Made by a program: the position numbers and the translations under genes. The notes beneath the pieces were generated by a model, which was given only the letters and a program-made list of their open reading frames with translations, had not been told where the DNA came from and searched no databases. Source: an uncultured Acidobacteriaceae bacterium (GTDB lineage Bacteria > Acidobacteriota > Terriglobia > Terriglobales > Acidobacteriaceae). Taken from it: a stretch of DNA of 64,000 nucleotides. The stretch is taken from the NCBI GenBank assembly GCA_963838415.1, contig CAWIRB010000007.1, forward strand, positions 16,621 through 80,620, written 5' to 3'. Every line of letters begins with the position of its first letter. Position 1 is the first letter of the stretch. Below, in pieces: positions 55,905-59,357 of the stretch.

Positions 55905-55964
55905 AGCAAGTGAAGAAGTGACAAGAGATTGAAAGGCCGCAAAAGTGGAAGGCGAAACGTTGAA

Positions 55965-56010
55965 GGTGCCCCAGGTTCGCGCCCGTCCTTTGGGCGCTAA
56001 CCTGGGAGCC
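55965..56010 (+). repeat. REP-like hairpin element
   Basis: GGTGCCCCAGGTTCGCGCCCGTCCTTTGGGCGCTAACCTGGGAGCC. Confidence 0.9.
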
Positions 56011-56040
56011 GGAGCCAAGGCGCGCTCACCGTGGACGAAG

Positions 56041-56718
56041 TTACTTGGGCCGCAAAAACACCCTCTCACCTCCGCCGTACGCCTTTCGTTCCCGATCTCC
56101 AGCTGTCCACTCCGATTCGATCTCCACCGCCCCAATCTCGCGCAGCGCATAATGCCGGAAGCTGCTCCACTTCCACTCCTCAGGCCTTAGAACCAGCCCC
56201 CGCTTCACCGGATTGCGGTGAACGTATCGCAGCTTAACCGTAAACTCCTCGTAGTCGCGTACATTTCGATCATAGTAGCGTTTCTCCCAAAAGGATCCCG
56301 ATGTTGGGTGCCCCAGGTTCGCGCCCGTCCTTTGGGCGCTAACCTGGGAGCCCGAGGATCGAAAGCGTCGAACCCGTTTAGCGAAAGACAATTTCAGATA
56401 GTGCATTGCCTCGGCCAACGTAGCCGAGTCGGAAAGGTGCCCCAGGTTCGCGCCCGTCCTCTGCGCGCTAACCTGGGAGCCCCGGGAGGAGCAATCGCGG
56501 GCGAAGGCGGCAGGCTCACTCAACAGCAGATGAACATGCTCCGGCATGACAACGTACCCATAAACGCTGACATCGAAACGGAGGCGCATATCCTCCAGGC
56601 ATCGAACGAACAGATCGAACACCTCGACGGTTGCGAAATAGGGACAACGGCGGTAACAACTAAAAGTTACAAAATGGCATTGCCCGGATTCGTGAAAGCG
56701 CCGGAGACCGCTGGGCAT
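56041..56718 (-). CDS. REP-associated tyrosine transposase (RAYT; IS200/IS605 Y1 HUH family) with two REP-encoded in-frame inserts
   Basis: HUH motif VMPEHVHLLL, FWEKRYYDRNVRD, and catalytic-Tyr motif RYVHRNPVKRGL. The peptide GSQVSAQRTGANLGH occurs twice and is encoded by REP copies. Confidence 0.8.
   Translation of the reverse strand: MPSGLRRFHESGQCHFVTFSCYRRCPYFATVEVFDLFVRCLEDMRLRFDVSVYGYVVMPEHVHLLLSEPAAFARDCSSRGSQVSAQRTGANLGHLSDSATLAEAMHYLKLSFAKRVRRFRSSGSQVSAQRTGANLGHPTSGSFWEKRYYDRNVRDYEEFTVKLRYVHRNPVKRGLVLRPEEWKWSSFRHYALREIGAVEIESEWTAGDRERKAYGGGERVFLRPK
56307..56351 (+). repeat. REP-like hairpin element inside the RAYT CDS
   Basis: Identical core to the flanking copies. Confidence 0.9.
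56436..56481 (+). repeat. REP-like hairpin element inside the RAYT CDS (inner stem altered)
   Basis: Core reads ..GTCCTCTGCGCGCT.. instead of ..GTCCTTTGGGCGCT.. . Confidence 0.9.
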
Positions 56719-56803
56719 GAGCCAAACTTACGCTGCGCAGTAACTCTGGGAAAGTACACGATCGTGGGTATGACTGAACCGGCGGGTGGGCACGACGCAC
56801 GGT

Positions 56804-56869
56804 GCACGGTGCCCCAGGTTCGCGCCCGTCCTTTGGGCGCTAACCTGGGCGCTGTCGGGCACACTACCT
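56804..56869 (+). repeat. 66-bp REP-containing direct repeat, left copy
   Basis: GCACGGTGCCCCAGG...CTGGGCGCTGTCGGGCACACTACCT is identical to 58473-58538 and 58655-58720. Confidence 0.9.
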
Positions 56870-56932
56870 GCGTGTGAGCAAGACATCGACTATTATCCTT
56901 ACGGCGGCGTTGAGTAGGACTACTGTCCGGTC

Positions 56933-57781
56933 GTGTCTCAAAACTACAGATTCACCGGCAAAGAGCACGACGCGGAGAGCGGACTGGAGAATTTCGAAGC
57001 CCGCTATGATGCCTCGAGCATCGGCAGGTTCATGACGCCGGACGATGGGTCGCATCAAACGGTGGGCGATCCGCAGAGCTGGAATCTCTACGCCTACGTG
57101 CGCAACCAACCGCTCCGCTATGTAGACCCCACCGGACACGGGCCTCAAGGGGCCACAGCGGCGGCATCAAGTTGCGCCCAGGATCAGGGCGGAGGAGGAC
57201 ATACTACATGTAATGTCGACACCTCGGGCACAACAACGGCGCAAAATACGTTCCCGTTCCATGTGCCGTACGGGCAGCAAGGATTGTATGGGGCACCTTG
57301 TCCAGTTGACGCGTGCGTGACGGCCACGGCCCCTAAGTCGATCTGGGGGAAAATCGGCAGTTGGTTCGGTGGTGTGGCATTCGGAATCGTGCGATGGGGC
57401 AAGCTCGGTGGCCCTTTGCACAGGGCGGGTGTTGAAAGAGTTTCCAGATCCTTGGAGGAGAGCGGCTTCAAGGTCCAAAGGGAGGTAAGAGTTCCGACCC
57501 CCAATGGCGCCAAGTCCTCGCGCTGGGTAGATGTCGTTGGAACGAAGAACGGCGAGACGAGAATGTATCAGATCGGAAGGCAAAATATGGATGGAACTCC
57601 GGTCGCTCGCGAAGTTCAAGCTCTCGATGACATTGAAGGGGCTACAGGCATCCGGCCTAATTTTCTTCCGTACAATATCGGAGAGCCGAATTTTGGTGTG
57701 CCTGGAGCTACCGACATCGCGCCGGGTGTCACGCCGGGAGAAGGTGAAGTCCCGGTCGAGCCAGAAATCATTCCCGAGTAG
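56933..57781 (+). CDS. orphan Rhs/YD-repeat C-terminal tip with variable toxin domain (N-terminally truncated)
   Basis: YRFTGKEHDAESGL..F.ARYD...GRFMTPD...NLYAYVRNQPLRYVDPTG core-end motif. Homology extends upstream in frame (DYYPYGGVE*) across a TAG at 56914-56916. Confidence 0.75.
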   Translation: MSQNYRFTGKEHDAESGLENFEARYDASSIGRFMTPDDGSHQTVGDPQSWNLYAYVRNQPLRYVDPTGHGPQGATAAASSCAQDQGGGGHTTCNVDTSGTTTAQNTFPFHVPYGQQGLYGAPCPVDACVTATAPKSIWGKIGSWFGGVAFGIVRWGKLGGPLHRAGVERVSRSLEESGFKVQREVRVPTPNGAKSSRWVDVVGTKNGETRMYQIGRQNMDGTPVAREVQALDDIEGATGIRPNFLPYNIGEPNFGVPGATDIAPGVTPGEGEVPVEPEIIPE

Positions 57782-57788
57782 GAACCCT

Positions 57789-58352
57789 ATGAGCAAGCAA
57801 TTCTATGTGTATTTGCTGCCTGCGGATGTGGAGGCTCTGGTTTACACACTGAAGTCGCGGCTGGACGTTTCGCTCATTCAACCGTCATCGTCAGGACCGT
57901 TTCCGGTAAAGCTGGAATCACCAGTTTGCAACGATGCGCTGATGCTGAAGGAGGCGGCAGTCCGAGTTGATTGCTTTATCACTCGCAAAGACGCAGACAT
58001 CAAGATGCGGTTTGTTCCAGCCCTTTCTCGCTGGAGTGTTCAAGGCGAGTCTGAGGTGATCGAGTTCCAAGGCTGTGAGTTCGACGGCAGTGTGCTTCTG
58101 CGTGGACGTTTCTATTTTCAAAATGACTTCCTCATGGAAGACATGATCGCTCCTAAACGGACGGAGTTCCTCGCCTGGGCAGACAAGGTGTTTCGGCTGG
58201 CCAAGAAGTCACTGTGCAGATCAGAAACTCTCGATGCGTATGTGGGTGAACATGCCGAGAAGTGGAAACAAGAGGGCGGACGGTTTGCTTGGATGGTCAC
58301 TCCAGAGCGCGGCCCGATTTTCGAGGGTGAAGCCGGATCTCTTGCCAGATAG
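57789..58352 (+). CDS. putative cognate immunity protein
   Basis: Starts 8 nt after the toxin stop, is 187 aa, and has lower GC than its surroundings. No recognised family. Confidence 0.5.
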   Translation: MSKQFYVYLLPADVEALVYTLKSRLDVSLIQPSSSGPFPVKLESPVCNDALMLKEAAVRVDCFITRKDADIKMRFVPALSRWSVQGESEVIEFQGCEFDGSVLLRGRFYFQNDFLMEDMIAPKRTEFLAWADKVFRLAKKSLCRSETLDAYVGEHAEKWKQEGGRFAWMVTPERGPIFEGEAGSLAR

Positions 58353-58474
58353 AAAACAACGGGTGATCTGACCAGCAAGCGGAATACCTACCGTTGGCGT
58401 TCTAAGGCGGCCAGGGCTTGCGATCCGGCGCGCGTGGAGAGGCGGGTGGGCCCCATCTCCTTCACTCATGTAGC

Positions 58475-58838
58475 ACGGTGCCCCAGGTTCGCGCCCGTCC
58501 TTTGGGCGCTAACCTGGGCGCTGTCGGGCACACTACCTTTCGCACCTTTCGAAGGGCGCCGGATAAGTCCCGCGGTTTTCGAGACCACCGCAAACCGCCC
58601 TTGACTCGCCTGCTAGAGTAGATTCATAGCAAACAAGCACTTGCCCCAGCACTCGCACGGTGCCCCAGGTTCGCGCCCGTCCTTTGGGCGCTAACCTGGG
58701 CGCTGTCGGGCACACTACCTTTCGCACCTTTCGAAGGGCGCCGGATAAGTCCCGCGGTTTTCGAGACCACCGCAAACCGCCCTTGACTCGCCTGCTAGAG
58801 TAGATTCATAGCAAACAAGCACTTGCCCCAGCACTCGC
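58475..58838 (+). repeat. perfect 2 x 182-bp tandem duplication, each unit beginning with a REP hairpin
   Basis: Units 58475-58656 and 58657-58838 read identically. Confidence 0.95.
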
Positions 58839-59357
58839 TGCTCCTTGACAACAAGACCGAGCTGTAGTCGGCCGTTGTTTCAGTGGCCCACCTCTGCAAC
58901 CCGTTTATCGGGCGTCGTGCGAATAACTCTATTTCTTTCAATACTTTGATAGCGAACAGGCTACGCAAGCAAAAAGACCCAGCTAAGTGATTGATTTCCC
59001 GTGGCGGGCACCGGTCAATACGCACCAAGTTTACCCGGAGCCAGCGTTAACTCTCTATTCCTCAATACTTTGTATATAAGTCGTGATTATTCAATACTTT
59101 GGAGGGAGTTTCTCTCTAACTTCATGATTCCAATATACCCGTAGACGGGGGAGGGGGTACCCCCTGCGAAACACCTCGCCTCGACGTTCGAAACATCGAC
59201 AAACTTCCGAAGCGACCCAGAAACTCCGTCCCCGTTGTCCGTGAGAAGTCCGAGAGAAAAAAGACACAAAAACACTGAAGTTACCGCGATAATCAGAGCA
59301 TCCTTCTGGCACACTATACTGGTACGACTCCCCCCAGAAAATAGCGCAGTCAAAATA

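What the first reader, a model, noticed from the sequence alone, without database searches (positions are those of the whole stretch)
56804..58538. Orphan Rhs toxin tip plus immunity gene bracketed by identical 66-bp REP-containing direct repeats next to the RAYT
The Rhs core-end motif (YRFTGKEHDAESGL...NLYAYVRNQPLRYVDPTG) begins abruptly ~20 nt after the left repeat. Residual in-frame homology (DYYPYGGVE) is broken by TAG at 56914-56916. There is no Rhs shell upstream, so this is a displaced or orphan toxin-immunity cassette. It is flanked on both sides by the same 66-bp sequence: the REP hairpin plus GCTGTCGGGCACACTACCT (56804-56869 and 58473-58538, repeated again at 58655-58720). The RAYT gene lies immediately to the left. 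This raises the possibility that REP/RAYT activity, or recombination between REP-containing repeats, captures, excises or shuffles polymorphic-toxin cassettes. To my knowledge that route for Rhs tip exchange has not been described. The established model is homologous recombination with the main rhs gene.
Basis: partly seen in the sequence, partly recalled or inferred. Interest (0 to 1): 0.72.

Follow-up and report, generated by a model that had tools for sequence, protein, structure and literature searches.

The report
REP-bounded orphan Rhs toxin cassette array
A truncated Rhs toxin gene and its antidote gene sit beside a REP-associated transposase in a peat acidobacterium, as one unit of a strain-variable cassette array whose units all start with the same 66-base hairpin repeat, and the foot of that hairpin has been used again and again as a DNA joining point.

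Summary
The three 66-bp repeats (R66), the orphan Rhs core end, the stop codon and the neighbouring RAYT are all present.

Comparison with other contigs of the same species gives three results:
- R66 is not a genome-wide repeat. It was found only at this locus.
- One contig carries three different toxin-immunity cassettes. Each is headed by R66 fused at the same nucleotide to about 380 nt of Rhs core.
- The array ends in 1-2 copies of a 182-bp unit that also begins with R66.

At least seven independent joins read ...GC|ACGGTGCC at the 5' foot of the REP hairpin. They include the import of a foreign toxin-immunity pair by two non-homologous joins and the edge of the 182-bp tandem duplication.

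Homologous exchange is also evident. Core SNPs are mosaic, unit copy number varies, and there are REP x REP deletions.

A second allele lacks the RAYT and the left R66 and keeps a longer Rhs remnant. The R66-core fusion is therefore secondary.

No full-length rhs with this core was found.

The RAYT is ancestral in related species, while Rhs is new to this locus.

Verdict: this is a real REP-delimited orphan-rhs cassette array. REP-foot-directed joining is shown by the sequences. Catalysis by the RAYT is plausible but untested.

The parts
55965..56006 (+). REP copy (REP0) between the DUF192 gene and the 3' end of the RAYT
   Evidence: The same position in related species also holds a REP.
56041..56718 (-). 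RAYT (REP-associated Y1/HUH transposase), 225 aa. It has HVHLL and YVHRNP motifs and carries two in-frame REP copies (56307-56348, 56436-56477).
   Evidence: NF047646 at 1.2e-30 and PF01797. Alignment to E. coli TnpA_REP (4ER8) shows about 47 extra residues. Orthologues at the same site occur in 5 related species.
56804..56869 (+). Left R66: GCAC + REP hairpin (core 56813-56849) + tail CGCTGTCGGGCACACTACCT. It is the head of the cassette. A 7-nt duplication (GCACGGT) lies at its 5' foot.
   Evidence: As single-stranded DNA it folds at -21.5 kcal/mol, z -5.0.
56870..57136 (+). Remnant of the Rhs core 3' end (ACEQDIDYYPYGG ... YRFTGKEHD ... RYVDPTG). It is truncated exactly at the R66 edge and has an in-frame TAG at 56915-56917.
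   Evidence: Natural upstream Rhs sequence continues in L013 and L017.
57137..57248 (+). Conserved linker after the DPxG motif, shared by all cassette heads. Homology between alleles ends at about 57248-57294.
57401..57694 (+). Toxin domain of cassette A: predicted PD-(D/E)xK (restriction-endonuclease fold) nuclease. The ORF is 56933-57781.
   Evidence: AlphaFold model, core pLDDT about 90. Foldseek matches 1Y88 at E 1.1e-4, plus R2 endonuclease and Hjc. There was no Pfam hit.
57789..58352 (+). Candidate cognate immunity gene, 187 aa
   Evidence: The identical protein is found on 21 contigs. It is paired with toxin homologues in L019, L100, L101 and L102.
58353..58472 (+). Cassette 3' tail (segments c and X). 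By eye it resembles the sequence after the immunity gene of the L113 Rhs locus. X also survives upstream of the orphan in type 2 alleles.
   Evidence: The similarity to L113 was seen in the printed sequences and not scored.
58473..58654 (+). 182-bp unit 1 = R66 (58473-58538) + 116 nt. The last ~70 nt are the ancestral region upstream of the next gene.
58655..58836 (+). 182-bp unit 2, a perfect tandem copy. Copy number is 1 or 2 among otherwise identical contigs. The duplication's edges lie at GC|A (58474/58475 and 58656/58657) and GC|T (58838/58839).

Best explanation
**What it is.** This is one unit of a strain-variable array of orphan rhs toxin-immunity cassettes. The array lies in a hypervariable intergenic spot (DUF192 gene / TonB-like gene) of a peat Acidobacteriaceae species, next to an old, vertically inherited RAYT.
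- Each unit is R66 (66 bp, REP-derived), then about 380 nt of Rhs core end and linker, then a variable toxin domain, then its immunity gene.
- The array is closed by 1-2 units of R66 + 116 bp.

**How it turns over.** Two processes act.
1. Homologous recombination and gene conversion between the repeated heads (446 bp) or between bare REP/R66 copies. These add, remove and reshuffle units.
2. Polar, non-homologous joining at one fixed phosphodiester at the 5' foot of the REP hairpin (GC|ACGGTGCC). The hairpin-carrying right-hand DNA is pasted behind varied 3' ends. This created new cassette/R66 junctions, a deletion, the 182-bp duplication and a 7-nt stutter.

**Shown versus inferred.**
- The joins are shown by the sequences.
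- The enzyme is inferred. A nick by the adjacent RAYT (5'-phosphotyrosine intermediate) followed by strand transfer is the most plausible source, at about 0.35-0.4.
- The toxin fragment is probably not deliverable, because it has no shell, no proper start and a TAG stop. The likely retained function is orphan immunity. This is also inferred.
For: **Array structure.**
- L016 holds R66 + core heads at 1770, 3293 and 4917, with three different toxin/immunity pairs. It also holds an R66 + 54-nt stub and two 182-bp units.
- The heads are 96-98% identical, with mosaic SNPs.
- The 182-bp unit occurs once or twice in otherwise identical contigs.

**REP x REP deletions.** One lies inside the RAYT (L016, L022). 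Another fuses REP0 to R66 in L027.

**Fixed join point.** Seven joins with different left partners all read GC|ACGGTGCCCCAG. For five (J2, J3, J4, J6, J8) a parental sequence is in hand, for J7 only a paralogue, and for J9 the unduplicated allele in L016.

**Foreign import.** The c1 toxin and immunity are 98.8% identical to the tip of the L113 Rhs gene (at least 1036 aa). That gene has an unrelated core. The homology stops 2 nt into R66 and starts at a GC microhomology.

**Cross-species boundary.** In 5 related species the orthologous REP beside the RAYT ends at the same GC|A, and the DNA beyond it differs in every species.

**Published biochemistry.** TnpA_REP cuts single-stranded DNA 5' of REPs at C|T or C|A. 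It stays linked to the 5' end, joins it to any 3'-OH, and is modelled to add units and sequester flanking genes (PMC3333891, PMC8266576).

**Specificity of R66.** It was found only at this locus.
Against: - The multi-cassette array rests on one 7.7-kb metagenome contig (L016).
- The type 2 allele (L017, L104) has no RAYT and no left R66, yet it keeps an orphan cassette and a right-hand R66.
- The R66|core join itself shows no microhomology on the R66 side.
- Two parental break sites are C|C or C|G rather than the published C|T or C|A. Four of six fitting is not significant (p about 0.2).
- The RAYT carries about 47 extra REP-encoded residues and may be inactive.
- All REPs here point the same way, and the 5' tetranucleotide is GGTG, not GTAG.
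- No empty allele or circular form was seen.
- A hairpin-specific host nuclease or replication errors could also create a hot spot.
Confidence: 0.55

Rival explanations
1. The REP is passive. R66 is only portable homology and a structure-prone palindrome. All turnover comes from RecA-type recombination between repeats, plus ordinary microhomology-mediated illegitimate events. These are provoked by hairpin-stalled replication or by hairpin nucleases such as SbcCD. The RAYT plays no part.
For: - SNPs are mosaic, unit copy number varies, and there are REP x REP deletions.
- Every join has a 2-3 nt GC(A) microhomology.
- RAYT-less alleles persist.
- The intergenic site is hypervariable in 59 related species, most of them lacking REP or RAYT.
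Against: - The right partner is fixed to one phosphodiester in at least 7 independent joins. The polarity is constant: the hairpin-bearing side is constant and the 3' ends vary. This is not what stalling of a nascent strand at the hairpin would give, but it is what an HUH nick gives (inference).
- Homology alone cannot create new immunity-tail|R66 junctions.
Confidence: 0.3
2. It is a local accident plus an assembly artefact. A single decaying orphan was hit by a REP and then flanked by a simple tandem duplication, and the three-cassette contig is a misassembly. The R66 bracketing has no bearing on cassette dynamics.
For: - L016 is a single contig.
- L011 is a probable chimera between this locus and L013.
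- Short-read contigs break inside the core.
Against: - L016 crosses four 446-bp repeats, which short-read assemblers do not do. That it therefore came from long reads is my inference.
- Its flanks are collinear with the locus.
- Its H cassette is 99.3% identical to L017, yet it has a longer native 3' tail. L017's junction derives from that tail by a 100-nt deletion. A chimera would not produce this.
- The join with L113 is independent evidence.
Confidence: 0.08
3. It is not an orphan but an expressed short Rhs-like toxin, translated from GTG 56933 and used without a shell.
For: - An ORF of 282 aa is intact on many contigs.
- Many relatives are annotated as 200-490 aa proteins.
Against: - Upstream Rhs homology is in frame but cut by R66 and by a TAG stop.
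- Longer natural versions exist.
- There is no shell, no N-terminal delivery domain and no detected promoter.
Confidence: 0.05

Closest known systems
Orphan rhs-CT/rhsI modules downstream of rhs genes in Enterobacteria (for example Salmonella and E. coli; from my own knowledge of that literature)
   Same: - A 5'-truncated core fragment, a variable toxin and a cognate immunity gene.
- Arrays of several such modules.
- Core homology that allows recombination.
   Different: - There is no main rhs gene at the locus, and none with this core was found anywhere.
- Every module is truncated at the same nucleotide and headed by a REP-derived repeat.
- A new tip entered by non-homologous joins, not by crossover within the core.
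REPtron: RAYT/TnpA_REP with its REP/BIME sequences (PMC3333891, PMC8266576)
   Same: - A Y1/HUH RAYT flanked by its hairpin repeats.
- Joins lie 5' of the hairpin at a C|A dinucleotide.
- The tandem unit addition and the genes trapped between REPs match the published amplification and sequestration models.
   Different: - The REPs are all in one orientation.
- The 5' tetranucleotide is GGTG, not GTAG.
- There are REP copies inside the RAYT ORF.
- The trapped cargo is a set of polymorphic-toxin cassettes, which my one literature search did not find described.
Recombinase-associated orphan-immunity arrays (rAID-1) of Bacteroidales, and integrons (10.1101/471110)
   Same: - A recombinase gene lies beside a co-oriented array of strain-variable toxin-defence cassettes.
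- The cassettes are separated by a conserved repeat that can fold.
   Different: - The adjacent enzyme is an HUH Y1 transposase, not a tyrosine recombinase.
- The cassettes keep toxin fragments and a 380-nt core.
- It is seen at one locus of one species, and no activity has been shown.
REP sequences at the join points of tandem chromosomal duplications in Salmonella (recalled from the literature, not re-read here)
   Same: A REP lies at the boundary of a tandem duplication, and the copy number changes.
   Different: Here the boundary is the hairpin foot, with only 2 nt shared with the other end. It is not a REP x REP crossover.

Membership tests
Rhs/YD polymorphic toxin, C-terminal module | RHS repeat-associated core domain ending in the DPxG motif | tested here: met
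   TIGR03696 at 1.6e-17 and 63.7 bits, against a cut-off of 32.5. RYVDPTGH ends at 57139.
Rhs/YD polymorphic toxin, C-terminal module | YD-repeat shell upstream in the same gene | tested here: not met
   R66 replaces the upstream coding sequence at 56869|56870. None of the window's large ORFs scanned is a shell. Hence it is an orphan.
Rhs/YD polymorphic toxin, C-terminal module | Variable toxin domain followed by a cognate immunity gene | tested here: met
   The fold is a PD-(D/E)xK nuclease. The pairing is conserved in 4 other loci. Toxicity and protection were not tested.
Classical orphan rhs array | Located downstream of a full-length rhs that shares the core | tested here: not met
   The 120 best hits in 5.8 billion proteins are all 491 aa or shorter. 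Only two loci share more than 90% of the core, and both are orphans.
REPtron (RAYT + REP) | RAYT protein with HUH and catalytic Tyr motifs | tested here: met
   NF047646 at 106 bits, against a cut-off of 80. It aligns to 4ER8. HVHLL and YVHRNP are present.
REPtron (RAYT + REP) | Repeated hairpins flanking the RAYT, with a conserved 5' tetranucleotide | tested here: met
   There are 6 REPs within 3 kb around the RAYT. Hairpin z-scores are -4.3 to -5.0. The 5' GGTG is conserved, but it is not the canonical GTAG.
REPtron (RAYT + REP) | REPs in inverted pairs (BIME/REPIN) and at high copy number across the genome | tested here: inconclusive
   All 7 window copies are on the + strand. Related species have REP(+)...REP(-) around the RAYT. 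Only one copy lies elsewhere in the 64-kb window. The whole genome was not available.
REPtron (RAYT + REP) | Enzyme cleaves and joins single-stranded REP DNA | not testable with these tools
   Only indirect evidence is available: the joins at GC|A.
Integron / rAID-1-like cassette system | Tyrosine recombinase (IntI/XerD) next to the array | tested here: not met
   The neighbouring gene is an HUH Y1 transposase.
Integron / rAID-1-like cassette system | Strain-variable cassettes separated by a conserved repeat | tested here: met
   Different contigs hold 1 or 3 cassettes and 4 toxin types, all bounded by R66.
IS200/IS605-type or ISCR-type HUH transposon with cargo | The same bounded unit found at several genomic sites | tested here: not met
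   The R66 24-mer was found only at this locus. Only this locus shows a REP-headed Rhs among 120 relatives.

The most novel reading that the evidence does not exclude
The RAYT next door nicks single-stranded DNA at GC|A at the 5' foot of its REP. It then pastes the hairpin-led DNA behind other 3' ends. The RAYT/REP pair therefore works as an integron-like capture and shuffling device, run by an HUH enzyme, for polymorphic-toxin and immunity cassettes. This would be the first natural case of gene capture by a domesticated REP transposase.
Probability: 0.3. Interest if true: 0.85.

Novelty: new variant of a known kind. Interest (0 to 1): 0.62.

Why it matters
What RAYTs and REPs do for their hosts remains unsettled. 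Gene sequestration between REPs has been proposed from in vitro work but rarely seen in nature.

Here a natural population shows a REP foot used repeatedly as a polar join point, and the joins build and remodel an array of toxin-immunity cassettes. This gives a concrete, testable substrate: a 66-nt oligonucleotide, a predicted cut at GC|A, and defined products.

It also shows that Rhs tips can be acquired without core homology and without a resident full-length rhs gene. This bears on how orphan immunity repertoires grow in soil bacteria.

Tried and rejected
- **R66 tail 24-mer, genome collection.** An exact scan of 185,579 species genomes gave 0 hits. The species representative lacks it, or the repeat is strain-specific.
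- **R66 tail 24-mer, JGI metagenomes.** Only 2 hits. One of them (L011) proved to be a probable chimera of this locus with L013 and was set aside.
- **Tail as degraded Rhs coding sequence.** Rejected. Natural Rhs sequences (L013, L017, P0024) read VVENATGS/MVTSAAGV before ACEQ, with no convincing match. The tail also exists in another species without Rhs (L027).
- **X (58441-58472) as ancestral flank of the DUF192 gene.** Rejected after by-eye comparison with the sequence after the L113 immunity gene.
- **C|T or C|A rule for the left-hand break sites.** Four of six fit, which is not significant, so it was not used as evidence.
- **Protein family searches.** Pfam and NCBIfam gave nothing for the toxin domains or for most immunity genes. 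The exception is a Sel1-repeat immunity gene in L016.
- **Promoter/terminator scan.** Uninformative.
- **Rfam and tRNA scans.** Nothing in the region.
- **Literature search for RAYT + Rhs.** No paper linking the two.
- **Empty allele.** No allele of the form RAYT-R66-116 was found among 21 contigs.
Full report
**1. Observation**

- R66 consists of GCAC, a REP hairpin and the tail CGCTGTCGGGCACACTACCT. It is identical at 56804-56869, 58473-58538 and 58655-58720.
- The REP core occurs seven times in the window, all on the + strand, against none expected. Six of the seven lie within 3 kb of the RAYT.
- As single-stranded DNA, R66 folds into an 8 + 7 bp hairpin. GCACG at the 5' end pairs with CGGGC in the tail (-21.5 kcal/mol, z -5.0).
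- ORF 56933-57781 matches the Rhs-associated core domain at 1.6e-17, covering model positions 14-76.
- In-frame Rhs homology starts at 56870, the first base after R66. It is interrupted by TAG at 56915-56917, where the other copies read GAG.
- None of the window's large ORFs scanned is a YD shell.
- ORF 56041-56718 (-) is a RAYT (NF047646 at 1.2e-30).
- The two right-hand R66 copies are the first 66 bases of a perfect 182-bp tandem duplication.

**2. The cassette**

The C-terminal domain has no Pfam match. Its AlphaFold model (core pLDDT about 90, alpha-beta-beta-beta-alpha-beta) matches restriction-endonuclease-fold proteins: 1Y88 at E 1.1e-4, the R2 endonuclease and Hjc. It is therefore a predicted PD-(D/E)xK nuclease.

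The 187-aa gene downstream follows homologues of this toxin in four unrelated contigs, at 73-84% amino-acid identity. That is the pattern expected of a cognate immunity gene.

**3. Organism and locus history**

The locus belongs to a peat-soil Acidobacteriaceae species, for example MAG GCA_003134435.1.

Among 80 related species genomes, the order tadC - DUF192 - TonB-like gene - iPGM is conserved. None of the 80 has an Rhs core at this site.

Five related species have the orthologous RAYT at the same position, with REP(+) on one side and REP(-) on the other. The RAYT is therefore older than the species, and the Rhs material is a recent arrival.

The DUF192 / TonB-like gene spacer ranges from 1.5 to 8.5 kb in 59 species and holds unrelated ORFs. 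It is a general hot spot.

The last ~70 nt of the 182-bp unit are the ancestral region upstream of the TonB-like gene.

One other species (L027) has a REP with the R66 tail and the next ~20 nt directly after the DUF192 gene, with neither RAYT nor Rhs. R66 + 116 therefore pre-dates the Rhs insertion. L027 itself looks like a REP0 x R66 deletion.

**4. Alleles within the species**

- **Type 1** (the window and at least 10 contigs): RAYT - R66 - cassette A - one or two 182-bp units.
- **Type 2** (L017/L105, L104, L018, L109, L012): no RAYT and no left R66.
  - Its Rhs remnant is about 100 nt longer and reads naturally (...YYFSSYLGSRAVVENATGSACEQDIDYYP).
  - It carries a different toxin, with an HNH-like signature by eye (...AHNKALADGG...; no family match).
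  - It also has a different immunity gene, followed by R66 + 116.
- **Type 3** (L016, one 7.7-kb contig), in order:
  - RAYT
  - R66 and cassette c1
  - R66 and cassette c2, which carries the type 2 toxin
  - R66 + 54 nt
  - R66 and cassette c3, whose immunity gene is a Sel1-repeat protein
  - two 182-bp units

The four heads (R66 + 380 nt) are 96-98% identical, with mosaic SNPs.

A second orphan in the same MAG (L013) shares the core at 97.6%. It has natural upstream Rhs sequence and no REP.

Among the 120 closest proteins in 5.8 billion, none exceeds 491 aa, and only this locus shows REP-encoded residues ahead of the core. No main rhs with this core was found.

**5. Junctions**

Every R66 copy is preceded by different DNA, and every junction reads ...GC|ACGGTGCCCCAG. 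The table lists the joins, with the parental sequence where one is available.

| Join | What it is | Left-partner sequence before the join (source) |
|---|---|---|
| J2 | Cassette tail X joined to R66 | AGC\|TTCTC (L017) |
| J3 | Edge of the 182-bp duplication | CTCGC\|TGCTCC (window, cut 58838\|58839) |
| J4 | 3' end of cassette c1 | ACCGC\|CGAGC (L113) |
| J6 | Truncated 116-nt stub in L016 | ACCGC\|AAACC (window) |
| J7 | 3' end of cassette c3 | GAGC\|AGTG (by paralogy with L113) |
| J8 | 100-nt deletion that made the type 2 junction | GGTGC\|GAGCC (L016) |
| J9 | 7-nt stutter GCACGGT in the window | Absent from L016 |

The right partner is always the same base of R66. The left partners vary and share only GC(A).

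J4 is the most informative. The c1 toxin and immunity are 98.8% identical over 1036 nt to the tip of a long Rhs gene (at least 1036 aa) whose core is unrelated. The homology begins at a GC microhomology inside the linker, at the point where identity to the window stops (57294). It ends two bases into R66. A new toxin-immunity pair therefore entered by two non-homologous joins, one of them at the REP foot, and not by crossover within the core.

In the five related species, the orthologous REP(-) next to the RAYT also ends at ...GGGGCACC[G/T]TGC|, and everything beyond it differs between species.

The R66|core fusion itself (ACCT|GCGTG) shows no microhomology. Given type 2 and L013, it is a secondary truncation of a longer remnant.

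**6. Mechanism**

*Shown.*
- Homologous exchange operates: SNPs are mosaic, unit copy number varies, and there are REP x REP deletions inside the RAYT (L016, L022) and in L027.
- A polar, non-homologous join point recurs at the REP 5' foot.

*Inferred.* The polarity is a constant hairpin-bearing 5' end joined to assorted 3' ends. This is what a Y1/HUH nick gives.
- Published TnpA_REP enzymes cut single-stranded DNA 5' of REPs at C|T or C|A.
- They stay attached to the 5' phosphate and transfer it to an added 3'-OH.
- They are modelled to add units in a rolling-circle-like manner and to sequester flanking genes (PMC3333891, PMC8266576).
- The 182-bp duplication, bounded by GC|A and GC|T, fits that model.

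*Caveats.*
- Only four of six parental sites are C|T or C|A, which is not significant.
- The RAYT carries about 47 REP-encoded extra residues.
- Type 2 alleles lack the RAYT.
- The array depends on one contig.
- Host hairpin processing is an alternative source of the hot spot.

My estimates are about 0.55 for the combined picture, about 0.35-0.4 that the RAYT is the enzyme, and 0.3 for a purely passive REP.

**7. Comparison and novelty**

By its parts this is an orphan rhs module and a REPtron, both of them known kinds. Three things are new:
- identical REP-derived heads on every cassette;
- a population-level array beside the RAYT;
- a documented non-homologous tip import at the hairpin foot.

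The closest concept is the recombinase-associated orphan-immunity array rAID-1, which has integron-like intergenic repeats (10.1101/471110). The enzyme class differs, so this is not a member of that family. My one full-text search for RAYT plus Rhs found no paper linking the two.

I rate it a new variant of a known kind, with interest 0.62. If the RAYT step were proven, it would be considerably more important.

Noticed in passing
window 56307-56348 and 56436-56477 (inside RAYT ORF 56041-56718, minus strand): Two REP copies lie in frame inside the RAYT gene. Each encodes ...SQVSAQRTGANLGH..., and together they add about 47 residues relative to E. coli TnpA_REP. tblastn matches the RAYT as one continuous stretch in two other species that also have two internal REPs (L034, L043). 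L016 and L022 have a single hybrid REP, which removes the helix between the two copies and looks like a REP x REP deletion.
   Followed up: partly
window 58473-58836; L001-L005: The 182-bp unit is present once or twice in otherwise identical contigs. In L012 and L016 the two copies are only 92% alike. The unit duplicates the promoter-like TTGACT...TAGAGT stretch ahead of the TonB-like gene, so its expression may vary with copy number.
   Followed up: partly
window 55905-59234 versus L020-L099: The spacer between the DUF192 gene and the TonB-like gene is a hypervariable island site. It spans 1.5 to 8.5 kb in 59 related species and holds unrelated ORFs. Most of these species have no REP or RAYT there.
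   Followed up: partly
window 58924-59101 and 59107-59119: Three copies of a 25-nt repeat ending in CAATACTTTG lie upstream of the TonB-like gene. In type 2 alleles (L012, L017, L104) a 4.3-kb insert with an IS1595-family transposase sits at 59107-59119, flanked by a ~13-bp duplication (GTTTCTCTCTAA...).
   Followed up: no
L017 9828-9853; L013 9920-9948; also L022, L034, L035, L060, L061, L075, L082: A second palindromic repeat family (GCCACTTCTCGCG..GAGAAGTGGC) lies just upstream of the truncated Rhs fragments in L017 and L013. It recurs on both strands in several related loci.
   Followed up: no
window 58353-58472 versus L113 3678-3790: By eye, the ~110 nt after the immunity gene of cassette A resemble the sequence after the immunity gene of an unrelated long Rhs locus (L113). 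The tails of cassettes c1 and c3 share its first 20-30 nt. The similarity was not scored, and the role of this tail is unknown.
   Followed up: partly
L043 12286-12371; L020 11814-11945: In L043 a duplicate of the last ~88 nt of the DUF192 gene lies directly after the REP(-) that flanks the RAYT unit. L020, which has neither RAYT nor REP at this site, also carries a second fragment of the DUF192 3' end.
   Followed up: no
whole window: Base composition is strongly skewed on the + strand: C 34.3% against G 24.9%.
   Followed up: no
L101 752-6514: A homologue of toxin A with its immunity gene lies between a phage-integrase-type recombinase gene and a 1058-aa YD-shell gene. This is another recombinase-adjacent context for the same toxin family.
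   Followed up: no
L011 (Ga0182016_10067846): This contig joins the RAYT/R66 head of this locus to the tail of the L013 orphan across the shared 380-nt core. It is probably an assembly chimera, though a real recombinant cannot be excluded.
   Followed up: partly
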